The notes under the pieces: model-generated
What the model saw: the letters and a program-made list of their open reading frames with translations, nothing else
What the model was told of the DNA's origin: nothing
Databases searched by the model: none
Program-made: the position numbers and the translations under genes
Part shown: one piece after another, positions 52,147-63,261 of the stretch
Layout of the letters: the number at the start of each line of letters is the position of its first letter
Numbering within the stretch: position 1 is the stretch's first letter
Virus record (IMG/VR): IMGVR_UViG_3300008111_000027
Span: 62,001-125,300 of that record
DNA: 63,300 bases
Strand: one strand, 5' to 3'
DNA from: an uncultured virus (IMG/VR IMGVR_UViG_3300008111_000027)
Taxonomy: Duplodnaviria > Heunggongvirae > Uroviricota > Caudoviricetes

Positions 52147-52401
52147 TTACTCAGAAACTTCGTCGTCTGATTTCTTTTTATGTGAGAACTTATCTAAAGT
52201 ATCTGCACCCATTCCAATAGCGGTAATGACCATCACCGCGTTTACCAATTCTTCTGATGGTTTAATGTCACCATGTGTAAAAGAATTTGCCATCATGGTT
52301 CCGCAAAGGAATAATGCACCTAAAAGGGCGATTACCGGTTTGATTGAAGTTGACCCTCTTTCATCTTTGAAAAGGTCAATAATCCATTTTTTGAAGTTCA
52401 T
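52147..52401 (-). CDS. small two-TM protein (holin-like)
   Basis: D.RG..S.K, two hydrophobic helices, charged tail. Confidence 0.55.
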   Translation of the reverse strand: MNFKKWIIDLFKDERGSTSIKPVIALLGALFLCGTMMANSFTHGDIKPSEELVNAVMVITAIGMGADTLDKFSHKKKSDDEVSE

Positions 52402-52522
52402 AGTTGTAATTTAGTTTAGTTTATTTATTTGGTTTACTATAAATACCTCGGCAATCGAGATTGTTATATATATTTTTTTAAAAAAATTTCAAACTTTTCT
52501 TGTTTTTCAGCATACTTATTAT

Positions 52523-52530
52523 TATCTTTG
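52523..52530 (+). promoter_or_regulatory. Bacteroidota-type -7 promoter element of tRNA operon 1
   Basis: TATCTTTG matches TAnnTTTG. Confidence 0.7.
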
Positions 52531-52560
52531 TAAAAGATTTTAAAATTAAATAAAACTTCA

Positions 52561-52650
52561 ATGAGACGCTTTACACATACAATGTCATTTACAATCTGTT
52601 CAAAATGGGCGGAGGTGGCTGATATTTGCATGTCCCGAGGTGTCTTGTAA
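52561..52650 (+). CDS. leader peptide 1 (29 aa, MRRFTHTMSFTICSKWAEVADICMSRGVL)
   Basis: ATG..TAA between promoter and terminator; codons match operon 1 anticodons; contains antiterminator TCCCGAGGT. Confidence 0.8.
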   Translation: MRRFTHTMSFTICSKWAEVADICMSRGVL

Positions 52651-52677
52651 GTTGTTTAGTTTAAAACGATATAAAGG

Positions 52678-52706
52678 AACCTCGGGAGAAATCTCGAGGT
52701 TTTTTT
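52678..52706 (+). terminator. attenuator terminator of tRNA operon 1
   Basis: AACCTCGGGA GAAA TCTCGAGGTT + U tract. Confidence 0.88.
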
Positions 52707-52713
52707 GTTTTAT

Positions 52714-52783
52714 GGGCCTGATGTCAACGGCAGACCGTCTGATTTGCAATCAGAACGATTGGGTTCGATTCCCACAGTGTCCA
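52714..52783 (+). tRNA. tRNA-Ala(TGC), acceptor stem imperfect
   Basis: TCTGA TTTGCAA TCAGA arm; G3:U70; GTTCGATTC. Confidence 0.75.
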
Positions 52784-52784
52784 C

Positions 52785-52822
52785 AAATCTGGGTGTCACA
52801 GGTTCAATTCCTGTCGGTACCA
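52785..52822 (+). pseudogene. 3' half of a tRNA, probably tRNA-Phe(GAA)
   Basis: AAA TCTGG GTGTC ACAGG TTCAATT CCTGT CGGTACC A; no 5' half. Confidence 0.65.
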
Positions 52823-52827
52823 CATTT

Positions 52828-52901
52828 GTCTTCGTAGCTCAATTGGTTAGAGCACCACACTTTTAATGTGGGGGTTATGCGTTCGAGTCGCATCGGGGAC
52901 A
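52828..52901 (+). tRNA. tRNA-Lys(TTT)
   Basis: CCACA CTTTTAA TGTGG. Confidence 0.93.
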
Positions 52902-52902
52902 C

Positions 52903-53039
52903 AAAGGTTGATTGGGGAATGATACATCAATATCTCGAGAGTGAATATTGGATGATGTATTCGGAGTTTGCAGATATTCACCTGAAGTAACGCCAATCGT
53001 AAAAGAGGATGTCCACTGAACCATCTTCCTCTTTCCTTT
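52903..53039 (+). ncRNA. unknown structured RNA A
   Basis: AAAGG/CCTTT closing stem, GATTGG/CCAATC, ATACATCA/TGATGTAT, AAGAGGA/TCCTCTT. Confidence 0.5.
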
Positions 53040-53042
53040 CAT

Positions 53043-53115
53043 AGTTCCTTAGCTCAGTTGGGAGAGCGTCTGCCTTACATGCAGAGGGTCGTCGGTTCGA
53101 ATCCGACAGGGACTA
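53043..53115 (+). tRNA. tRNA-Val(TAC)
   Basis: TCTGC CTTACAT GCAGA. Confidence 0.93.
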
Positions 53116-53123
53116 CACAATAC

Positions 53124-53194
53124 ACAGGTGTAGTGAAAGGGTATCATACCGGTCTCCAAAACCGTTGTTGGGAGTTCGAATCTCTCCACCTGTG
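53124..53194 (+). tRNA. tRNA-Trp(CCA)
   Basis: CGGT CTCCAAA ACCG. Confidence 0.9.
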
Positions 53195-53216
53195 CAAACT
53201 TTTAAAAATAAACGAC

Positions 53217-53645
53217 ATGGAAAGAAATGATAACATCAACGCCGTCAAAATGAAATTTGAAGCGGAGAAAATGAAACTAAAAGAAGAGAGGGAAAGAATG
53301 ATTAGGAATCATTGGGAGAATTTACCAAAGATTAATAATCCCGAAGATGTCCCAACTCTTCCAAGAGTGGATGAAAAAGAATGGAGAGAGTTCTATGTTC
53401 CGAAACTAATTGACGCAGGTGCGATTCCTAAAAAAGATTTAGTAAATGGTCAAATTTATATTGGTGAACATAGAAATACCACAATCGCAAGATGGAATCA
53501 AGAGACAAACAAATTTATACACATGAGATATAAGTTTGGTTGGAGAGAGGATGATTGTAACCATTTTGAAGATGATGATGGATTTGCATTGTTCGTTCCA
53601 ATTAGATTGGGGACCCAAGAAGAATGGGATGAACGAATTAAGTAA
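53217..53645 (+). CDS. hypothetical protein within tRNA operon
   Basis: ATG 53217; the ORF-track extension overlaps tRNAs. Confidence 0.7.
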   Translation: MERNDNINAVKMKFEAEKMKLKEERERMIRNHWENLPKINNPEDVPTLPRVDEKEWREFYVPKLIDAGAIPKKDLVNGQIYIGEHRNTTIARWNQETNKFIHMRYKFGWREDDCNHFEDDDGFALFVPIRLGTQEEWDERIK

Positions 53646-53646
53646 T

Positions 53647-53721
53647 GGTTCTTTGGTGTAATGGATAGCACGCAACGCTACGGACGTTGAAGTAAGGGTT
53701 CGAGTCCTTTAGGAATCACCA
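53647..53721 (+). tRNA. tRNA-Arg(ACG)
   Basis: CAACG CTACGGA CGTTG; encoded CCA. Confidence 0.92.
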
Positions 53722-53722
53722 C

Positions 53723-53796
53723 GGTCCTGTACCCAAGTGGCTTAAGGGGGGAGTCTGCAAAACTCTTATTCGGTGGTTCGAATCCACTCGGGACCT
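53723..53796 (+). tRNA. tRNA-Cys(GCA)
   Basis: GGAGT CTGCAAA ACTCT; U73. Confidence 0.92.
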
Positions 53797-53858
53797 CAAT
53801 ATAAGGTGTGAGACTTATAATGGTTCATTATAAGGTTTGAACCTTATAATTTATAAAT

Positions 53859-53936
53859 GGTAGATATAGTTCAGTTGGTTAGAACGTCTGATTGTGGTCC
53901 AGAAGGTCGTCGGTTCGAATCCGATTATTTACCCCA
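53859..53936 (+). tRNA. tRNA-His(GTG)
   Basis: loop TTGTGGT; G-1 and C73; CCA. Confidence 0.9.
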
Positions 53937-53939
53937 AAT

Positions 53940-54016
53940 TGGAATATAGCTCAATTGGTTAGAGCATTCGTCTGATACGCGAAAGGTTATAGGTTCGATT
54001 CCTATTATTCCAACCA
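53940..54016 (+). tRNA. tRNA-Ile(GAT)
   Basis: TTCGT CTGATAC GCGAA; CCA. Confidence 0.92.
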
Positions 54017-54021
54017 AACAT

Positions 54022-54099
54022 TGCGGGATGCGTAGAAAGTGGTCATCTCGTCAGTCTCATAAGCTGAAGTTCCCGGTTCGAGTCCGGGTCCCGCAACCA
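54022..54099 (+). tRNA. tRNA-Met(CAT), probably elongator
   Basis: TCAGT CTCATAA GCTGA; CCA. Confidence 0.85.
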
Positions 54100-54139
54100 A
54101 ACATTTTGAAATATGGAATTTACTTCTTATATTTTATTT

Positions 54140-54150
54140 GTTCTTTGAAA
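54140..54150 (+). promoter_or_regulatory. boxA-like antitermination element
   Basis: GTTCTTTGAAA; same motif at 55385, 61092, 62841. Confidence 0.6.
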
Positions 54151-54155
54151 TATAT

Positions 54156-54227
54156 CGTGGGGTAGAGCAGTGGTAGCTCGTTAGGCTCATAACCTAAAGG
54201 TCGTCGGTTCGAATCCGACCCCCGCAA
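54156..54227 (+). tRNA. tRNA-fMet(CAT), initiator-like
   Basis: C1:A72 mismatch; TTAGG CTCATAA CCTAA. Confidence 0.85.
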
Positions 54228-54233
54228 CAAATG

Positions 54234-54316
54234 GTCATAATTAGGGTCGAGCCACATCTTGCCACGGTTATGACAAGGGTCAGAAGGAACAGAGGTGGCC
54301 GTGACTACTCTGACCC
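54234..54316 (+). ncRNA. unknown two-hairpin RNA B
   Basis: GTCATAA/TTATGAC and GGGTCAGA/TCTGACCC stems with complementary loops. Confidence 0.5.
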
Positions 54317-54322
54317 ACTATT

Positions 54323-54396
54323 GCCTCCTTAGCTCAGTTGGCCAGAGCAGCTGATTTGTAATCAGCGGGTCGTTGGTTCGAATCCGACAGGAGGCT
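54323..54396 (+). tRNA. tRNA-Thr(TGT)
   Basis: GCTGA TTTGTAA TCAGC. Confidence 0.93.
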
Positions 54397-54402
54397 CCGA
54401 TT

Positions 54403-54474
54403 GGTCTCATAGTTAATCGGCTATAATATCGCCCTGTCACGGCGAAGTGCCGGGTTCGATTCCCGGTGGGACCG
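54403..54474 (+). tRNA. tRNA-Asp(GTC)
   Basis: TCGCC CTGTCAC GGCGA. Confidence 0.93.
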
Positions 54475-54477
54475 CAA

Positions 54478-54683
54478 TGAGTAAGAGATACTCAGAGTCT
54501 TCGAATCAAGACTTTAAGAATGATTCCGCAGAAAGTCTACGGCGCGAGTGGGACTTCATGGGAACAAAGGAGAGCGACACACCTCCTCCCAGTAGTGTTG
54601 ACTTTTTTTAACGGGGACGCCCTTCAGGTTGTTTGAAAGAAAATAAACCGAAATGACTACTCACCGTAATCTCAGGTGGGGTA
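54478..54683 (+). ncRNA. unknown multi-hairpin RNA C
   Basis: series of hairpins (TGAGTA/TACTCA, AGTCTT/AAGACT, TACTCACC/GGTGGGGTA), GC-richer than the genome, no ORF. Confidence 0.5.
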
Positions 54684-54686
54684 ATT

Positions 54687-54774
54687 GGAGAGTTGGTAGA
54701 GTTGGTTTATTGCACCTGACTTGAAATCAGGAGAACTCGTGAGGGTTCCGGGGGTTCGAATCCCTCACTCTCCT
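54687..54774 (+). tRNA. tRNA-Ser(TGA)
   Basis: CCTGA CTTGAAA TCAGG; long variable arm. Confidence 0.92.
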
Positions 54775-54780
54775 CAAATT

Positions 54781-54852
54781 GGCCCGGTCGTCTATCGGTT
54801 AGGACACGTCCCTTTCACGGATGAAAGCGGGGTTCGATTCCCCGTCGGGCTA
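54781..54852 (+). tRNA. tRNA-Glu(TTC)
   Basis: CGTCC CTTTCAC GGATG. Confidence 0.92.
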
Positions 54853-54880
54853 CACTGAAATTAAATTAAAAAAAACCAAT

Positions 54881-55123
54881 ATGTTAGAAAAAATTTTAGA
54901 ACAATACGAAGATGAACAAATCTTAATTGCTGATGGATTTGATGATGCGGTAATAGGAATTGAAACATCTTCAATGAGATTAATCTATTCTGTTGAGAAG
55001 TGTATCACTATACTTATGAATCAAGGAATGGATATGACAGAAGCGGTAGAATATTTTGAATTTAATGTTTCCGGTTCTTACGTTGGTGAAAAGACTCCAA
55101 TATGGTGTGAAGATTTATTTTAA
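54881..55123 (+). CDS. conserved phage hypothetical protein
   Basis: ADGFDDAVIG...EAVEYFEFNV.G.YVGE.TP. Confidence 0.75.
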   Translation: MLEKILEQYEDEQILIADGFDDAVIGIETSSMRLIYSVEKCITILMNQGMDMTEAVEYFEFNVSGSYVGEKTPIWCEDLF

Positions 55124-55162
55124 TTTTTTTTTAAAAAAACTTGGAAATTAAAAAACTTTTTG

Positions 55163-55170
55163 TATCTTTG
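55163..55170 (+). promoter_or_regulatory. Bacteroidota-type -7 promoter element of tRNA operon 2
   Basis: TATCTTTG; TTG about 20 nt upstream. Confidence 0.7.
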
Positions 55171-55187
55171 TGATAGTTATAAACAAA

Positions 55188-55292
55188 ATGATGAAAATGG
55201 TTTACATACAACAACCCTTGAACAACCCACTAAGTGGTAATGGGAGAGGTATATATTTATGTGACCCATGTTCGGAGTTTTTAAAAGTGTAA
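55188..55292 (+). CDS. leader peptide 2 (34 aa, MMKMVYIQQPLNNPLSGNGRGIYLCDPCSEFLKV)
   Basis: ATG..TAA between promoter and terminator; codons match operon 2 anticodons; contains antiterminator GTTCGGAGTTTT. Confidence 0.8.
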   Translation: MMKMVYIQQPLNNPLSGNGRGIYLCDPCSEFLKV

Positions 55293-55313
55293 GGAACTTA
55301 ACCTACTAATAAG

Positions 55314-55346
55314 AAGACCCGAACTCAAAAAAAGTTCGGGTTTTTT
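55314..55346 (+). terminator. attenuator terminator of tRNA operon 2
   Basis: AAGACCCGAACT CAAAAAA AGTTCGGGTTTT + U tract. Confidence 0.88.
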
Positions 55347-55412
55347 GTTTTTAAGATTTTGTTGTTTATATTTTGATTAGATTTGTTCTTTGACATATTG
55401 GAATTGGTAAAT

Positions 55413-55497
55413 GCCGAGGTGATGGAATGGTAGACATGAGGGACTTAAAATCCCTTGGACAGTAATGTTCGTGTGGGTTCGACTCCCATCCTCGGTA
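55413..55497 (+). tRNA. tRNA-Leu(TAA)
   Basis: AGGGA CTTAAAA TCCCT; long variable arm. Confidence 0.93.
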
Positions 55498-55499
55498 CA

Positions 55500-55700
55500 A
55501 AAATGAAAAACTCCTTACAGAGGACGGATTAGCACCGTTGAAAGAAACTTTGGCTCTTGGGATTAGCTACCCAAATGAGTTACATGACCCAAAGTGAACT
55601 GTGATGGACCCTGCTCTGATGTGCACGTCAACAGGTGGACAGTAAACTATGTCCAATCAAATCTACAACTACGGTGAGCGTAGAAGGAGGTTTTCATTTT
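55500..55700 (+). ncRNA. unknown ~200-nt structured RNA D
   Basis: AAAATGAAAAACTCCTT / AAGGAGGTTTTCATTTT closing stem enclosing several hairpins. Confidence 0.6.
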
Positions 55701-55703
55701 AAT

Positions 55704-55775
55704 GGGCCCATAGTTAAAGGGATATAACTTCTCACTTCTAATGAGATGTTCCAAGTTCGAGTCTTGGTGGGCCTA
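55704..55775 (+). tRNA. tRNA-Arg(TCT)
   Basis: TCTCA CTTCTAA TGAGA. Confidence 0.92.
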
Positions 55776-55777
55776 CT

Positions 55778-55917
55778 AAGATAGTGGTCACTCTTACAAT
55801 GAAAGTCGACAAAGTAGTTGTAAGGTTCATAGTGTTCATCACCCTCGGCCGGTGCACTGATAAAACTCAGAAGAAGCCGTTAAGATTGGAGCGAGACGGG
55901 TACTCCATCACTATCTT
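55778..55917 (+). ncRNA. unknown ~140-nt structured RNA E
   Basis: AAGATAGTG/CACTATCTT closing stem; CTTACAA/TTGTAAG; TGGAG/CTCCA. Confidence 0.55.
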
Positions 55918-55924
55918 TTTTAAT

Positions 55925-55998
55925 AGGGAAGTAGCGCAGTTGGTTAGCGCACCTGGTTTGGGACCAGGGGGTCGCAGGTTCGAGTCCTGTTTTCCCTA
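55925..55998 (+). tRNA. tRNA-Pro(TGG)
   Basis: CCTGG TTTGGGA CCAGG. Confidence 0.93.
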
Positions 55999-56003
55999 CA
56001 AAT

Positions 56004-56075
56004 TCCTTGATAGCTCAGTGGTAGAGCAAACGGCTGTTAACCGTTGGGTCCCAAGTTCGAATCTTGGTCGGGGAG
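56004..56075 (+). tRNA. tRNA-Asn(GTT)
   Basis: AACGG CTGTTAA CCGTT. Confidence 0.93.
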
Positions 56076-56082
56076 CAAAAAA

Positions 56083-56146
56083 ATCGCTGATGGAAACATC
56101 GAAGGTGTGTAATGCTAGCAACACCGTAGGTTAAGCGATGTCCTAC
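56083..56146 (+). ncRNA. unknown small junction/pseudoknot RNA F
   Basis: ATCGCT/AGCGAT, GATG-GAAA-CATC, GGTGT/ACACC, GTAGG/CCTAC. Confidence 0.45.
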
Positions 56147-56151
56147 ACTTT

Positions 56152-56232
56152 GCCGAAGTGGTGGAATGGTAGACACACGACACTTAGGATGTCGCGCGTA
56201 ATTGCGTGGGGGTTCGAGTCCCTTCTTCGGTA
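56152..56232 (+). tRNA. tRNA-Leu(TAG)
   Basis: CGACA CTTAGGA TGTCG. Confidence 0.92.
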
Positions 56233-56238
56233 CAACAA

Positions 56239-56321
56239 TGAAAGGTGGGTGAGTGGTTAAAACCGGCAGACTGTAAATTTGCTCTCTTCGGGGTACGGGG
56301 GTTCGAATCCCTCCCTTTCAA
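56239..56321 (+). tRNA. tRNA-Tyr(GTA)
   Basis: GCAGA CTGTAAA TTTGC; long variable arm. Confidence 0.9.
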
Positions 56322-56335
56322 CAAAAAGTAATAGT

Positions 56336-56887
56336 ATGGAAAGAAATAACATTATTAAAAGTATGATGGATTCAATCACTCCTGAAATGGAGGAAAGGTT
56401 CAAACAAGAAAGAATCGAGTGGAAAAATAGTTTAACCGCAGAATATCAACTTGGTCATTATGTTGGTTTGGAAATCGTTCACAATTATCTCCCAACCCTA
56501 TCAACTGATATGTTACAAACTCGTAATGTCATTGAGGTATCTGAAGAAGATTCATTAGAGAATGAAAGATTGGACACCGAATGGTATGTAACAACACAAC
56601 ATGGTGGGGAATGGAATGGTAAGGATGAAAGTGGCAATAAAGAAAAATGGGACTTATACCACCAACACAATAAAATGTTGGAAAGGAAATACCTACCCAA
56701 TCCTCTTTATTGTCACATGGGTGTTTTGAACATTCGAGATATGGATGATTTCAAAAAAGGTTTAAGATTTGCATTATGGGATTGTGATATGTGTTCTTAT
56801 AACATCGAACTTGAGAACATAAAAATCTATGACGAAGAACATTTAATGAGTACGATTATAGAGTTTTCGTTGGATTTGGTGGTGTAG
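56336..56887 (+). CDS. hypothetical protein within tRNA operon
   Basis: ATG 56336; stop lies inside the next tRNA. Confidence 0.7.
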   Translation: MERNNIIKSMMDSITPEMEERFKQERIEWKNSLTAEYQLGHYVGLEIVHNYLPTLSTDMLQTRNVIEVSEEDSLENERLDTEWYVTTQHGGEWNGKDESGNKEKWDLYHQHNKMLERKYLPNPLYCHMGVLNIRDMDDFKKGLRFALWDCDMCSYNIELENIKIYDEEHLMSTIIEFSLDLVV

Positions 56888-56954
56888 CTCAATTGGTGAG
56901 AGCAGGACGCTTATACCGTCAAGGTTATGGGTTCAAATCCCGTCACCACTACCA
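56878..56954 (+). tRNA. tRNA-Ile(TAT)
   Basis: GACG CTTATAC CGTC; CCA. Confidence 0.88.
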
Positions 56955-56956
56955 TT

Positions 56957-57030
56957 GGTCCCTTAGCTCAGTTGGTTAGAGCACCCGACTCATAATCGGT
57001 AGGTCCACGGTTCAAGCCCGTGAGGGACCA
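56957..57030 (+). tRNA. tRNA-Ile2(CAT), lysidine type (inferred)
   Basis: CCGA CTCATAA TCGG; GGTCCCTTAGCTCAG body typical of Ile2. Confidence 0.8.
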
Positions 57031-57055
57031 CGAGATATTTATATATAAAAAAATC

Positions 57056-57508
57056 ATGGGAATTGAATTAAAAAAGAAAAAACAACTTATCGAAAGATTA
57101 AACAAAAGATTATTATCTGAAGCCGAAATGGAGTGTCCTAAAGCAACTCAAGATTTAGAGTTGAACACTAATAATAGAGACAAATCAATAAAAGCGGATT
57201 ATATAAAATATGGTCCACTTAATATTGATGAACCCGGTGATTATTGGGAAATGGTTGCATCCGATTGGAATACGACTGTTGAAGCCGCTAAAAAATCACT
57301 ATGTGGTAATTGTGTTGCATTTGATATATCACCAAGAATGGATGAATGTATGCCAGGTTCGGTTTCTGATGATAGTGGTAGATTAGGATACTGTTGGATG
57401 CATCACTTTAAATGTCACTCCGCAAGAACATGTAAAACATGGGCAAAAGGTGGTCCGATTACCGAAAATACGGTGTCATATGAGTGGCAACAAAAAAATC
57501 AAAAATAA
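57056..57508 (+). CDS. Cys/His-rich hypothetical protein
   Basis: CGNCVAFD, GYCWMHHFKCHSARTC; late-promoter motif 57036-57043. Confidence 0.72.
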   Translation: MGIELKKKKQLIERLNKRLLSEAEMECPKATQDLELNTNNRDKSIKADYIKYGPLNIDEPGDYWEMVASDWNTTVEAAKKSLCGNCVAFDISPRMDECMPGSVSDDSGRLGYCWMHHFKCHSARTCKTWAKGGPITENTVSYEWQQKNQK

Positions 57509-57577
57509 TATCATCATGTGGTCGCACCCTTAACTCCAAAACCTGTTAAGGAAATCGTTATGGGAAGACCACTCCAC

Positions 57578-57649
57578 GCGATAGTCGTATAACGGTTATT
57601 ATACCACCTTGCCAAGGTGGGGACGATGGTTCAATTCCATTCTGTCGCT
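57578..57649 (+). tRNA. tRNA-Gly(GCC)
   Basis: CCACC TTGCCAA GGTGG. Confidence 0.92.
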
Positions 57650-57696
57650 CACTTTTATCGGACAACCAATATTTATTATTACATAATGGTTGTCCA

Positions 57697-58101
57697 ATGA
57701 GAAATAGAGAAAAAAAAGAAAAACAATGTTTGAATTGTGGTTGTGAAATTCCTAATAGGAATCTTTACTGTAATAATAAGTGTCAATTCGAATATCAAAG
57801 AAAAAATATTTTCAAATCTTTAGAGGAAAATAATTTTGAAAGATATACAAGATGTGACACAATCCACGAGATAACAAAAAAATATTTGATAGAAAAATTT
57901 GGTGAAAAATGTATGGTTTGTGAATGGGATAAAGTGAATGAACATACAGGGATAGTCCCAATCCAAATTAATCATATAGATGGTAACCCACATAATCATG
58001 ATTTATCAAATGTTGAGTTACTCTGTCCTAACTGTCATTCTTTAACAGAATTTTTTGGTCGAAGAGGTAAGGGTAGGAAATGGAGATATCAAAGTAAGTA
58101 G
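57697..58101 (+). CDS. HNH homing endonuclease
   Basis: CLNC..YC..KC; C..C; HIDGN..N....N..LLCPNCH. Confidence 0.88.
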   Translation: MRNREKKEKQCLNCGCEIPNRNLYCNNKCQFEYQRKNIFKSLEENNFERYTRCDTIHEITKKYLIEKFGEKCMVCEWDKVNEHTGIVPIQINHIDGNPHNHDLSNVELLCPNCHSLTEFFGRRGKGRKWRYQSK

Positions 58102-58165
58102 ACCTTAAAAAGGGCCCTTCCGTTGCGTACGAAAACGGCTTGTTGGGCCCGGGTCTACCTTTTAA

Positions 58166-58237
58166 GCGAATATCGTATAACGGTCATTACTTCAGACTTC
58201 CAATCTGAAGATGCCAGTTCGATTCTGGCTATTCGCT
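58166..58237 (+). tRNA. tRNA-Gly(TCC)
   Basis: TCAGA CTTCCAA TCTGA. Confidence 0.92.
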
Positions 58238-58242
58238 CATAT

Positions 58243-58313
58243 TGCCCTTTCGTCTAATGGCAGGACATGTGGTTTTGGTCCACAGTGTGGAGGTTCGAAT
58301 CCTTCAGGGGCAA
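58243..58313 (+). tRNA. tRNA-Gln(TTG)
   Basis: TGTGG TTTTGGT CCACA; U1:A72. Confidence 0.9.
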
Positions 58314-58334
58314 CTAATCAATTCCAATATAACA

Positions 58335-58420
58335 GGAAGGTTACCCAAGTTGGTGAAGGGGTCAGTTTGCTAAACTGATAGGGTGTCACAGCCGCGAGGG
58401 TTCGAGCCCCTCACCTTCCG
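58335..58420 (+). tRNA. tRNA-Ser(GCT)
   Basis: TCAGT TTGCTAA ACTGA; long variable arm. Confidence 0.92.
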
Positions 58421-58447
58421 CAGAGTACTTATAGAATATAGAATGGT

Positions 58448-58909
58448 ATGCAAAAATTTAGAACATTGTACGGAACACCTATAACCGACGTTATAGATTA
58501 CATCAAAGATTATTTGGTGGATAAATCTGATGTGGAGATACTGATTGGTTCAGATTCACAATCGTTTAGTAATTCCAAAACGGTTTACGGGGTGGTTATT
58601 GCACTTTACACAAAAGGTAAGGGTGCACACGTATTGTGCACTAAAGACACAACACCATTTGAAAAAGATACATCAAGTAGACTAATGACTGAAGTGTGGA
58701 AGGCGGTTGAAGTTGCTGAACACTTGAGAAACAATGGTTTACCAAAAGCCACTTGGATTGATATTGACCTTAATCCTGACCCCAAATACAAATCAAATAA
58801 GGTTTTGAGACAAGCCGTTGGTTTGGTTGAGGGCATGGGGTACAAGGTTAGATACAAACATGCGGGCGCTATGGTTACTTACAGTGCCAACCATTTAGTA
58901 AGGATTTAA
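58448..58909 (+). CDS. RNase H-like YkuK (DUF458) family protein
   Basis: IGSDSQ, GKGAHV, RL..EV, IDIDLNPD...SN. Confidence 0.8.
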   Translation: MQKFRTLYGTPITDVIDYIKDYLVDKSDVEILIGSDSQSFSNSKTVYGVVIALYTKGKGAHVLCTKDTTPFEKDTSSRLMTEVWKAVEVAEHLRNNGLPKATWIDIDLNPDPKYKSNKVLRQAVGLVEGMGYKVRYKHAGAMVTYSANHLVRI

Positions 58910-62107: not shown

Positions 62108-62827
62108 ATGAGAATTGTTTGTATATCCGACACCCATTCCTTACATGAAGGAATGTTATATAACATCCCAAATGGGGATATATTAATCCATGCTGGTGAT
62201 TGTACAAACGTCGGTCGACAAAACGAGGTGAGAGAGTTTATTGAATGGTTTCAAAACATTGAAGGTTTTACCTATAAAATTTTCATTGCGGGTAATCATG
62301 ATTTTGCGTTTGAAAGGGAACCAACATGGTTAAATTTATATTTGGACCCAAACATATTGGCGGAACATAATGTTACATATTTGGAAGACGGTGAATTAGA
62401 AATAGTTAGTTCGGAATTTTCAAGACCTATAAAAATATATGGTTCACCATGGCAACCTGAATTTTTTGATTGGGCATTCAACTTACCAAGAAATGGGGAT
62501 GTCTTGAAATCGAGATGGGATGACATACCTAACAATACTGACATATTAATTACTCACGGTCCACCACATGGAATTAGAGATTTTACACCTAATAACTTAC
62601 AGGTTGGATGTGAATTATTAAGAGAACGTGTTGAAGTTTTAAAACCACTTTTACATGTTTTTGGTCATATACATGGTGCTTATGGTATTGTGGAAATGAA
62701 TGATACTGTATTTGTAAATGCATCAACGTGTACTGAAAGGTATCAACCAATAAATAAACCATGGGTTTTTGATTTAACAGAAATTGATGGTATATTTACA
62801 ATAAATTTTATAGACGAAGAAAATTAA
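62108..62827 (+). CDS. metallophosphoesterase (calcineurin-like)
   Basis: SDTH, HAGD, GNHD, THGPP, GHIH. Confidence 0.92.
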   Translation: MRIVCISDTHSLHEGMLYNIPNGDILIHAGDCTNVGRQNEVREFIEWFQNIEGFTYKIFIAGNHDFAFEREPTWLNLYLDPNILAEHNVTYLEDGELEIVSSEFSRPIKIYGSPWQPEFFDWAFNLPRNGDVLKSRWDDIPNNTDILITHGPPHGIRDFTPNNLQVGCELLRERVEVLKPLLHVFGHIHGAYGIVEMNDTVFVNASTCTERYQPINKPWVFDLTEIDGIFTINFIDEEN

Positions 62828-62854: not shown

Positions 62855-63253
62855 GGGGGTGTATGGAATCGATTGGCGTACATATGGTAAATGGGCACGT
62901 AGTCAGACTTCATCTATGACTTTAATCCATGGTGGAAATTTTTAAGCGGCAACGTTTACAACAACATGGAAGTAGCAGGTCTTCTTGCAACTTCTAAAGT
63001 TGCGGCCTAATTGGTCGTAACTGACGGGTCGATGGACACATAACCTTGGAACAGAAGTCCTTACGGTGTGATACCACCTTAGAGTGTCAAAGGTCTCGTT
63101 CAGAGTGCTACCTATTAAAGTGAACTCGACACAGTTGATGGTAACGATGTCAAAATAGGAACCACCTATTTGTCGGTTATGAATAATCGAATAAACGTGT
63201 AGTCCATTTATGGTATTGCGAGCAAGACGCGGGTTCGAAACCCGCCACCTCCA
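62855..63253 (+). ncRNA. ssrA: tmRNA
   Basis: GGGGGTG/CACCTCC-A acceptor with G3:U, T-arm GCGGG TTCGAAA CCCGC, tag ORF 62948-63010 GNVYNNMEVAGLLATSKVAA*. Confidence 0.92.
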
Positions 63254-63261
63254 CAAAAAAG

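What the first reader, a model, noticed from the sequence alone, without database searches (positions are those of the whole stretch)
55188..55346. Attenuator 2: leader MMKMVYIQQPLNNPLSGNGRGIYLCDPCSEFLKV samples all operon 2 anticodons
Codons 6-24 (TAC ATA CAA CAA CCC TTG AAC AAC CCA CTA AGT GGT AAT GGG AGA GGT ATA TAT TTA) are all in boxes read by operon 2 tRNAs: Tyr, Ile-TAT/CAT, Gln, Pro, Leu-TAA, Asn, Leu-TAG, Ser-GCT, Gly-GCC, Gly-TCC, Arg-TCT. GTTCGG-A-GTTTT (55270-55281) can pair with the terminator 5' arm AAGACCCGAAC (55314-55324): 11 bp, one bulge, one GU. The sequence is unrelated to attenuator 1 but the architecture is the same, and a boxA-like motif follows at 55385.
Basis: partly seen in the sequence, partly recalled or inferred. 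Interest (0 to 1): 0.9.

Follow-up and report, generated by a model that had tools for sequence, protein, structure and literature searches.

The report
Codon-matched leader attenuator before phage tRNAs
A tiny translated "test" gene, spelled in the codons that the downstream phage tRNA genes read and wired to a switchable transcription stop, probably lets the phage make these tRNAs when ribosomes decode those codons slowly, a control not found in print for tRNA genes.

Summary
The ORF at 55188-55292, its 19 consecutive operon-2 codons, the terminator at 55312-55346, the alternative pairing 55270-55281 with 55314-55324 and the boxA-like motif at 55385 are all present.

The attenuator reading is supported by comparison, not by experiment.
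- **Conserved ORF:** it is kept in 13 relatives. All 5 indels upstream of the stop region are multiples of 3.
- **Covarying hairpin:** it pairs codons 2-7 with codons 24-29.
- **Class-wide pattern:** in 45 automatically detected ORF+terminator+tRNA units from diverse viral contigs, unrelated leaders match their own downstream tRNA set. In 16 of 45 units the leader beat or tied every decoy ORF. The own set ranked first for 12 of 20 representatives, and 0 of 20,000 permutations reached the observed score.
- **boxA:** the 17-mer is the Bacteroidota rRNA-spacer element.
- **RNA:** one metatranscriptome contig ends inside the terminator's U tract.

Caveats:
- A promoter-like box lies between terminator and boxA in this family.
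- Most relatives break the 19-codon run with a Ser codon.
- One lineage keeps the leader with only 4 tRNAs.

Eight literature searches found no such control of tRNA genes. This scan has noted the same class before on other DNA. Verdict: a new variant of leader-peptide attenuation, confidence about 0.7.

The parts
55141..55170 (+). Promoter-like P1: TTG 55141-55143, a 19-nt spacer, then the Bacteroidota-type -7 box TATCTTTG at 55163-55170. The ATG lies 17 nt after the box.
   Evidence: Read. The TAnnTTTG regex hit lies at -25 from the ATG. The box is conserved in all relatives. The consensus TTG/TAnnTTTG is recalled from the literature and was not tested here.
55188..55292 (+). Leader ORF of 34 codons plus TAA: MMKMVYIQQPLNNPLSGNGRGIYLCDPCSEFLKV.
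   Evidence: Conserved as a 32-36-codon ORF in 13 of 13 family members. All 5 indels upstream of the stop region are multiples of 3. No Pfam family.
55203..55259 (+). Sampler block, codons 6-24. All 19 codons lie in boxes read by operon-2 tRNAs, and 11 anticodon species are covered.
55185..55208 (+). Region 1, the 5' strand of the anti-antiterminator. It contains both ATGs and codons 1-7.
   Evidence: MFE fold. Covariation on alignment A2.
55258..55281 (+). Region 2. It pairs with region 1 or, through GTTCGGAGTTTT (55270-55281), with the terminator's 5' arm. It ends 8 nt before the stop codon.
55312..55346 (+). Intrinsic terminator: 5' arm (region 3) 55312-55325, loop 55326-55332, 3' arm (region 4) 55333-55346. 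The T run is 55341-55346.
   Evidence: An RNA contig in run X15 ends at 55345.
55367..55385 (+). P2-like promoter motifs: imperfect TATATTTTG at 55367-55375 and TAGATTTG at 55378-55385. Most relatives have an exact TATATTTG or TATCTTTG here.
55385..55401 (+). boxA-like GTTCTTTGACATATTGG, an rrn-type antitermination signal, 12 nt upstream of tRNA-Leu(TAA).
55413..58421 (+). Operon 2, the gated genes: tRNA Leu-TAA, Arg-TCT, Pro-TGG, Asn-GTT, Leu-TAG, Tyr-GTA, Ile-TAT, CAT, Gly-GCC, Gly-TCC, Gln-TTG and Ser-GCT. Small ORFs and the freshwater-1 RNA lie between them.
52561..52706 (+). Sister element (attenuator 1), used as an internal replicate. Leader MRRFTHTMSFTICSKWAEVADICMSRGVL is at 52561-52650, region 2 TCCCGAGGT at 52633-52641 and the terminator at 52678-52706. 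The first tRNA-like gene starts at 52714.

Best explanation
The element is a ribosome-mediated (leader-peptide) transcription attenuator that gates transcription into the phage's second tRNA operon.

**Proposed mechanism (inferred, not shown):**
1. Transcripts from P1, and possibly read-through from operon 1, carry a 34-codon ORF.
2. The ORF's central 19 codons lie between RNA regions 1 and 2. They are the codons decoded by the tRNAs encoded downstream.
3. If these codons are read fast, the ribosome reaches the stop codon and covers region 2. Regions 3 and 4 then form the terminator, and a roughly 170-nt leader RNA is released.
4. If any of these codons is read slowly, the ribosome stalls upstream of region 2 while region 1 is occupied or unwound. 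GUUCGGAGUUUU then pairs with the terminator's 5' arm.
5. RNA polymerase reads through, passes the rrn-type boxA and transcribes the tRNA array processively.
6. New tRNAs speed up leader translation and close the loop.

The likely signal is a shortage or damage of the matching tRNAs in the infected cell.

**Shown here:** the sequence anatomy, its conservation, covariation of helix 1:2, and class-wide matching of leader codons to downstream tRNAs.
**Inferred:** translation of the ORF, stalling, regulated read-through, the role of boxA and the nature of the signal.
For: **Anatomy**
- Promoter-like box, ORF, 1:2, 2:3 and 3:4 pairings, then boxA and tRNAs.
- Energies: 1:2 alone -23.9, 2:3 alone -15.6, terminator -18.3 kcal/mol. 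The full-length MFE (1:2 + 3:4) is -43.6, against -38.6 with 2:3 enforced.
- The sampler block ends 11 nt before GUUCGG. The tail codons that overlie region 2 are not operon-2 codons. This fits a ribosome footprint.

**Signs of translation**
- 13 of 13 family members keep a 32-36-codon ORF.
- 5 of 5 indels upstream of the stop region are 3 nt long.
- Variable columns by codon position are 6, 4 and 11.

**Structure**
- The inner part of helix 1:2 has 13 pairs, 5 changed on both sides, and 92% of cells paired.
- For the whole structure (helix 1:2 plus the inner hairpins), the covariation score is 0.168, against 0.100 +/- 0.012 in shuffles (0 of 500 reach it) and 0.03-0.06 when slid.
- The 2:3 duplex is -14.6, against -7.2 +/- 3.1 for controls, p = 0.013.

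**Internal replicate**
- Leader 1 is unrelated in sequence. Once Ala and Phe, intact in relatives, are counted, it has 24 consecutive operon-1 codons covering 14 of 14 classes.
- P(all 14 classes in 28 random codons) = 4e-5.
- Its region 2 is a perfect 9-bp complement of the terminator arm. Relatives L088 and L095 show a compensatory C-G to U-A change.
- No promoter fits in the 7 nt between its terminator and the first tRNA.

**Class-wide evidence**
- 45 distinct ORF+terminator+tRNA/boxA units were detected without using codon content.
- In 16 of 45 (12 families by eye) the leader's own-set codon run beats or ties every decoy short ORF of its locus.
- Own tRNA set ranks first for 12 of 20 representatives and within the top 2 for 16 of 20. 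Mean z is 2.64, against -0.02 +/- 0.30 permuted (0 of 20,000 reach it).
- 14 of 16 codon-matched units have an antiterminator duplex at p <= 0.05.
- 11 of 16 have no TAnnTTTG between terminator and first tRNA.

**Family covariation**
- In L233 and L298, tRNA-Thr sits in operon 2, and the leader-2 homologue has Thr codons in its block.

**boxA**
- The same 17-mer lies 26-200 nt upstream of 23S rRNA in 19 of 20 Bacteroidota loci tested.

**RNA**
- One 193-nt metatranscriptome contig matches 55153-55345 exactly.
- The flanking bin 54868-55081 has depth 0 in all 4 RNA runs.
Against: - There is no experiment. The RNA support is one contig at depth 2.3. It starts at 55153, upstream of the predicted P1 start, and contigs cannot prove transcript ends.
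- A promoter-like -7 box lies between terminator and boxA in 4 of 4 leader-2-family units and in most relatives. Operon 2 may therefore be transcribed without passing the terminator.
- Most relatives have Ser TCA/TCT, read by operon-1 Ser-TGA, at codon 11. Some have ACG or CAC.
- The L093 lineage (5 contigs) keeps the leader, but its 46-kb fragment holds only 4 tRNAs. Only 8 of 33 codons are matched there.
- The core AGTGGTAATGGGAGAGGT is invariant, third positions included, in the 12 close relatives. This hints at an extra RNA-level constraint or at low divergence.
- Folding 55178-55330 without a ribosome already gives 2:3 plus the inner part of 1:2. The ribosome-free default is therefore not clearly 'terminate'.
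- A longer set-2 run (23) exists elsewhere in a non-coding frame.
- The antiterminator core is invariant. Covariation support for 2:3 is weak (14 of 500 shuffles reach it).
- More tRNA would not relieve amino-acid starvation, so the physiological signal is uncertain.
Confidence: 0.7

Rival explanations
1. Vestigial or bypassed attenuator. In this phage family the hairpin at 55312-55346 mainly ends operon-1 and P1 transcripts. Operon 2 is driven by its own promoter P2 just upstream of boxA. The leader therefore no longer controls the tRNAs, or controls them only marginally.
For: - A TAnnTTTG-type box lies 8-14 nt upstream of boxA in most relatives, with an imperfect or overlapping one in the window.
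- No terminator stands between tRNA-Glu (54853) and 55312.
- The RNA contig starts at 55153, upstream of the P1 start site.
- The L093 lineage keeps the leader without the matching tRNAs.
Against: - The leader ORF, its sampler block and helix 1:2 are under visible constraint in this very family.
- The leader codons match the downstream operon, not the upstream one.
- The window's own P2 box is imperfect.
- 0 of 78 host boxA sites and only 10 of 82 phage boxA sites have such a box.
Confidence: 0.12
2. Independent small gene. P1 to terminator is a self-contained unit that makes a 34-residue peptide or a roughly 170-nt small RNA with a function of its own. It has no regulatory link to the tRNAs.
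For: - It has its own promoter-like box and a strong terminator.
- A discrete 193-nt RNA contig covers it.
- Its core is invariant at nucleotide level.
Against: - It does not explain why unrelated leaders in at least 12 families are spelled in the codons of their own downstream tRNAs.
- It does not explain why the ORF's 3' part mimics the terminator's 3' arm.
- It does not explain why 11 of 16 matched units leave no promoter motif before the tRNAs.
- No Pfam family and no Rfam family.
Confidence: 0.08
3. Translation-independent RNA switch. The structured leader senses tRNA or another ligand directly, as a T-box or riboswitch does, and the ORF is incidental.
For: - A covarying long hairpin and an inner CCAC/GUGG hairpin.
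- The invariant core.
Against: - No T-box or other Rfam match at E <= 1 over the leader, apart from a microRNA-precursor model (RF04128, 23.3 bits against a gathering score of 211) that I dismiss as spurious.
- In-frame indels and retention of the ORF.
- The matching is at the level of codon boxes across unrelated sequences, which a single ligand pocket cannot explain.
Confidence: 0.05
4. Chance ORF next to an ordinary terminator.
For: - Short ORFs abound in AT-rich DNA.
- One longer set-2 run exists elsewhere.
Against: The decoy test gives p_emp = 0.001. Conservation, covariation and the class-wide permutation result also argue against chance.
Confidence: 0.01

Closest known systems
Leader-peptide transcription attenuators of amino-acid operons (trpL, hisL, leuL, pheL, and the multivalent thr and ilv leaders) and of pheST
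   Same: Short leader ORF rich in regulatory codons. Regions 1:2, 2:3 and 3:4 with mutually exclusive antiterminator and terminator. Region 2 lies just upstream of the stop codon. The read-out is ribosome speed.
   Different: - The gated genes are tRNA genes, not enzymes.
- The regulatory codons are a mixed 'sampler' of 11 tRNA species rather than runs of one to three amino acids.
- The element is in a phage of Bacteroidota-type signals.
- No sequence or Rfam relation.
- The output, tRNA, acts directly on the sensed step.
T-box riboswitches
   Same: They couple the state of a tRNA pool to terminator read-through upstream of translation-related genes.
   Different: T-boxes bind uncharged tRNA directly through a specifier codon and the T-box sequence, without translation. 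No such features or Rfam match are present here, and an ORF is conserved.
rrn boxA (NusB/NusE) antitermination of rRNA operons
   Same: The identical 17-mer GTTCTTTGACATRTTGG lies in the 16S-23S spacer just upstream of 23S in Bacteroidota. In this phage it lies between the attenuator and the first tRNA.
   Different: Here it serves a phage tRNA array and sits downstream of a conditional terminator. Binding of Nus factors was not tested.
Same class noted earlier by this scan on other DNA (e1-5886956, e1-5943215, e1-5835092 and others)
   Same: Promoter, codon-matched leader ORF, switchable terminator and phage tRNA array.
   Different: These are other genomes and other leader sequences. They are AI notes, not publications.

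Membership tests
Ribosome-mediated leader-peptide attenuator | Short ORF in the transcribed leader between the promoter and the first regulated gene | tested here: met
   The ORF at 55188-55292 lies 17 nt after a TAnnTTTG box and 121 nt before tRNA-Leu. It is conserved in 13 of 13 relatives.
Ribosome-mediated leader-peptide attenuator | ORF enriched in codons tied to the product of the regulated genes | tested here: met
   19 consecutive operon-2 codons. The maximum among 759 decoy ORFs is 13. The own set ranks first of 20.
Ribosome-mediated leader-peptide attenuator | Intrinsic terminator between the ORF and the regulated genes | tested here: met
   55312-55346, 14 pairs plus T6, -18.3 kcal/mol.
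Ribosome-mediated leader-peptide attenuator | Antiterminator exclusive with the terminator, placed so that a ribosome at the stop codon masks it | tested here: met
   The 11-bp 2:3 pairing is -14.6 against -7.2 +/- 3.1, p = 0.013. Region 2 ends 8 nt before the stop. The covariation is only weak.
Ribosome-mediated leader-peptide attenuator | Upstream 1:2 hairpin competing with the antiterminator | tested here: met
   13-pair helix, 5 pairs changed on both sides, 92% paired. For the whole structure, 0 of 500 shuffles reach the covariation score.
Ribosome-mediated leader-peptide attenuator | Read-through rises when the regulatory codons are decoded slowly | not testable with these tools
   Needs reporter assays, in vitro assays or Term-seq. 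The only hint is one RNA contig ending at 55345.
Known Rfam leader families (Trp, His, Leu, Thr, Phe leaders) | Match to the family covariance model | tested here: not met
   No leader-family hit over 55100-55420 at E <= 1.
T-box riboswitch | Stem I/specifier and T-box sequence (Rfam model) | tested here: not met
   No match at E <= 1.
rrn-type boxA antitermination site | Sequence identity with the host-phylum rRNA-operon boxA at its usual place | tested here: met
   The 17-mer was found in more than 122 stretches of genome contigs, mostly Bacteroidota. It lies in the 16S-23S spacer upstream of 23S in 19 of 20 loci tested.
rrn-type boxA antitermination site | Binding of NusB/NusE and terminator-resistant elongation | not testable with these tools
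   No assay is available.

The most novel reading that the evidence does not exclude
Phages of Bacteroidota, and probably other phages, carry a widespread class of 'decoding-speed sensors'. These are codon-sampler leader peptides that gate each tRNA array by attenuation. The phage switches on exactly the block of tRNAs whose codons the infected cell reads slowly, for instance after host tRNA degradation or anticodon-nuclease defence. It then hands the polymerase to an rRNA-type boxA antitermination system. tRNA supply would thus be under direct, product-specific feedback, a logic not described for any tRNA gene.
Probability: 0.6. Interest if true: 0.9.

Novelty: new variant of a known kind. 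Interest (0 to 1): 0.85.

Why it matters
Why phages carry tRNA genes, and how those genes are controlled, is an open question. A leader whose codons mirror the downstream tRNAs gives a concrete, testable answer. Expression would be triggered by slow decoding of exactly those codons and shut off by the tRNAs themselves.

This would extend leader-peptide attenuation from sensing amino-acid supply to sensing tRNA supply. It would link phage tRNA arrays to host tRNA-targeting defences. It would also supply natural, modular multi-codon sensors for synthetic biology.

The association of an rrn-type boxA with phage tRNA arrays suggests that these phages also borrow the host's rRNA antitermination machinery.

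Tried and rejected
- **blastn against phage records:** blastn of 54860-55420 against 50,697 records found no match.
- **Rfam at E <= 1:** no family explains the leader.
- **Pfam:** nothing for either leader peptide.
- **Sigma-70 promoter scan:** uninformative, 13 found against 16.3 expected. This consensus does not suit the organism.
- **Run length alone as a statistic:** weakened by a 23-codon run in a non-coding frame. I replaced it with the decoy-ORF test.
- **Whole-ORF binomial tests:** diluted by the unmatched head and tail codons, so I used run-based tests.
- **Exact-core search AGTGGTAATGGGAGAGGT:** 23 loci, of which L086 and L101 were chance hits and were dropped.
- **False or uninformative auto-detected units:** the 45 units include ORFs that overlap tRNA genes (for example in L252, L277, L289 and L301). 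They also include units with near-complete tRNA sets, where the test has no power. All were kept in the denominators.
- **RNA contig coverage gaps:** 55346-55424 and most protein genes are uncovered, and this cannot be interpreted.
- **Scan notes for this genome:** none.
- **Bacteroid-trp (RF01692):** it is listed as a Bacteroidetes cis-regulatory candidate in a table of PMC2864571 (passage seen). That it is a Trp-codon leader is only my recollection.
- two calls failed on my own frame errors and were corrected (resent as 15 and 57).

Full report
**Setting.** The window is the second half of a 125.3-kb, 34% G+C virus record. It carries 25 tRNA genes and a tmRNA, all on the + strand.
- The tRNA genes fall into two blocks. 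Operon 1 runs from 52714 to 54853 and operon 2 from 55413 to 58421.
- Promoter-like boxes are of the TTG/TAnnTTTG kind. I recall this as the Bacteroidota consensus.
- The closest public DNA is freshwater viral contigs.

**Observation.**
- ATG 55188 to TAA 55292 encodes MMKMVYIQQPLNNPLSGNGRGIYLCDPCSEFLKV.
- Codons 6-24 all fall in boxes read by the operon-2 tRNAs. Codons 1-5 and 8 of the 10 tail codons fall in operon-1 boxes or Phe.
- Set-2 codons are 0.40 of the codons in 72 long ORFs.
- Among 759 short ATG ORFs of the genome, the longest set-2 run is 13, against 19 here.
- A stop-blind six-frame scan shows one longer run (23) and two runs of 18 in non-coding frames. Run length alone is therefore rare, not unique.
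- All 11 unambiguous anticodon species are sampled. P = 0.036 given 19 set-2 codons.
- The terminator at 55312-55346 is the best terminator-like site in 52300-58700.
- The stated 11-bp alternative pairing is exact.

- The MFE fold pairs 55185-55208 (start codons and codons 1-7) with 55258-55281. This gives the classical regions 1, 2, 3 and 4.
- The energies are -23.9 for 1:2, -15.6 for 2:3 and -18.3 for 3:4 kcal/mol. Full length favours 1:2 + 3:4 (-43.6) over a fold with 2:3 enforced (-38.6).
- The sampler block occupies the stretch between regions 1 and 2. It ends 11 nt before GUUCGG, about one ribosome half-footprint.
- The tail codons that overlie region 2 are not operon-2 codons. A stall anywhere in codons 6 to about 22 would leave region 2 free. 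A ribosome at the stop codon would cover it.
- One caution: without region 4, the fold of 55178-55330 already contains 2:3 plus the inner part of 1:2. The ribosome-free default is therefore uncertain.

**Relatives of this leader.**
- The 80-residue ORF upstream has 242 relatives in viral contigs. Nine of the 35 loci inspected keep the tRNA synteny, and eight of those carry the leader.
- An exact-core search gave 23 loci. Two were chance hits and were dropped, leaving 12 distinct sequences including the window.
- Two more divergent homologues, L233 and L298, came from the boxA scan.
- All 13 aligned members keep a 32-36-codon ORF.
- The 5 indels upstream of the stop region are each 3 nt. A sixth, of 4 nt, lies at the stop of L093.
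- On this alignment the inner part of helix 1:2 has 13 pairs, 5 of them changed on both sides, with 92% of cells paired. Over the whole structure, which also includes the outer part of 1:2 and the inner hairpins, covariation exceeds all 500 shuffles and all slid controls.
- The 2:3 core is invariant, so it is uninformative. Its extension covaries only weakly (14 of 500).

**Results against a strict reading.**
- Most relatives have Ser TCA/TCT at codon 11, and some have ACG or CAC.
- The 18-nt core is invariant in the close set.
- The L093 lineage keeps the leader, although its 46-kb fragment holds only four tRNAs.

**Internal replicate.**
- Leader 1 (52561-52650) is unrelated in sequence.
- In relatives, operon 1 begins with tRNA-Ala(TGC) and tRNA-Phe(GAA).
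- The window keeps a weak Ala-like tRNA (31.8 bits). It has a 67-nt gap relative to L282 that spans a boxA and the 5' part of tRNA-Phe.
- Counting Ala and Phe, leader 1 has 24 consecutive operon-1 codons covering 14 of 14 classes. P = 4e-5 for 28 random codons.
- Its region 2 (TCCCGAGGT) is a perfect complement of the terminator arm: -19.4 against -7.4 +/- 2.6 kcal/mol, p = 0.003.
- L088 and L095 carry TCTCGAGGT opposite ACCTCGAGA, a compensatory change.
- Only 7 nt separate its terminator from the first tRNA. That operon can be reached only through the terminator.

**The class.**
It typically lies 24-29 nt upstream of a tRNA.
- I took 80 loci with 8-kb flanks plus this genome. I detected units as ORF of 15-50 codons, then terminator, then tRNA or boxA, without looking at codons. 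This gave 45 distinct leaders.
- In 16 of 45 the longest run of codons read by the unit's own downstream tRNAs beats or ties every decoy short ORF of the locus. About 1 would be expected by chance.
- Examples:

| Locus | Own-set run | Background | Downstream tRNAs |
|---|---|---|---|
| L228 | 17 of 33 | 0.33 | Pro, Gln, Tyr, Thr, Gly, Lys |
| L236 | 11 of 18 | 0.23 | |
| L270 | 15 of 29 | 0.35 | Asp, Glu, Val, Leu, Ala, Trp |
| L292 | 10 of 25 | 0.12 | Arg, Leu, Gln |

- The remaining 29 include false units and units with near-complete tRNA sets, where the test has no power.
- I cross-paired 20 representative leaders with 20 tRNA sets. The representatives were picked by eye and some are homologous. 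The own set ranked first in 12 and in the top two in 16. Mean z was 2.64, against -0.02 +/- 0.30 permuted, and 0 of 20,000 permutations reached it.
- 14 of 16 matched units have an antiterminator duplex at p <= 0.05. So do 5 of 10 clearly unmatched units, several of which head near-complete arrays.
- In L233 and L298, tRNA-Thr sits in operon 2, and the leader-2 homologue carries Thr codons in its block.

**boxA and P2.**
- The 17-mer is abundant in Bacteroidota genomes.
- In 19 of 20 loci tested it lies in the 16S-23S spacer, 26-200 nt upstream of 23S.
- None of 78 host sites has a TAnnTTTG box within 45 nt upstream, against 10 of 82 phage sites.
- Among the 16 matched units, 5 have such a box between terminator and first tRNA. 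These include all 4 leader-2-family units.
- The window's own box is imperfect (TATATTTTG), with a second one overlapping boxA.
- This is the main reason to keep a bypass rival.

**RNA.**
- Six RNA runs hold parts of the stretch. Contigs of four were laid.
- One 193-nt contig of X15 matches 55153-55345 without a difference and ends inside the U tract. The upstream bin 54868-55081 is empty in all four runs.
- Perfect contigs cover 55469-55780 in all four runs.
- Contigs cannot prove transcript ends, and the 5' end lies upstream of the predicted P1 start. I count this as a weak hint that RNA ends at the terminator.

**Known systems and novelty.**
- The element works like the trp, his and ilv type of attenuator and meets five of its structural criteria here.
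- It matches no Rfam leader or T-box model.
- It gates tRNA genes with a mixed-codon sampler.
- Eight full-text searches (listings and abstracts seen, passages of PMC3082878 and PMC2864571 read) returned no description of leader-peptide control of tRNA genes.
- This scan's own notes describe the same class on other DNA. I reached my reading before seeing them.

**Verdict.** This is a real, conserved, codon-matched leader with terminator and antiterminator. It is most likely a decoding-speed attenuator for phage tRNA operon 2, with confidence 0.7. It is a new variant of a known mechanism.

Noticed in passing
window 55385-55401; loci L109-L304: The rrn-type boxA 17-mer GTTCTTTGACATRTTGG recurs in more than 116 viral contigs, usually 24-29 nt upstream of a tRNA inside phage tRNA arrays. 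The same 17-mer sits just upstream of 23S rRNA in Bacteroidota. Phage tRNA arrays seem to borrow rRNA-operon antitermination.
   Followed up: partly
window 55600-55661: A freshwater-1 RNA (RF02979, 84.7 bits, gathering score 72) lies between tRNA-Leu(TAA) and tRNA-Arg(TCT) inside operon 2. Perfect RNA contigs covering 55469-55780 occur in four metatranscriptome runs. The motif is therefore expressed, and here it is part of a phage tRNA operon.
   Followed up: partly
window 52714-52827: A degenerate tRNA-Ala(TGC)-like gene (31.8 bits, not called by ARAGORN) is followed by the 3' remnant of tRNA-Phe(GAA). The window has a 67-nt gap relative to L282 that spans a boxA and the tRNA's 5' part. Leader 1 still carries two Phe codons.
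   Followed up: yes
window 62855-63254: Phage-encoded tmRNA (ARAGORN tag GNVYNNMEVAGLLATSKVAA; Rfam 80.8 bits) lies a few kb downstream of the tRNA operons.
   Followed up: no
window 54029-54099: An odd tRNA(CAT) with the anticodon at position 30 and only 35.1 Rfam bits. It is one of three CAT genes, and which is initiator, elongator or Ile2 is unresolved.
   Followed up: no
window 54881-55120: An 80-residue ORF of no Pfam family lies between the two operons. It has 242 relatives in viral contigs, most of them not next to tRNA genes.
   Followed up: partly
window 57697-58098, 58448-58906, 62108-62824: Protein genes interspersed in or after the array: a weak HNH/treble-clef match (below cut-off), an RNase H-like PF04308 domain (63.5 bits) and a calcineurin-like metallophosphoesterase (55.2 bits).
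   Followed up: no
L093, L098-L100, L105 (one lineage): These contigs keep the leader-2 homologue, but only four tRNA genes follow in a 46-kb fragment. This is a mismatch between leader and array that a census should look at.
   Followed up: partly
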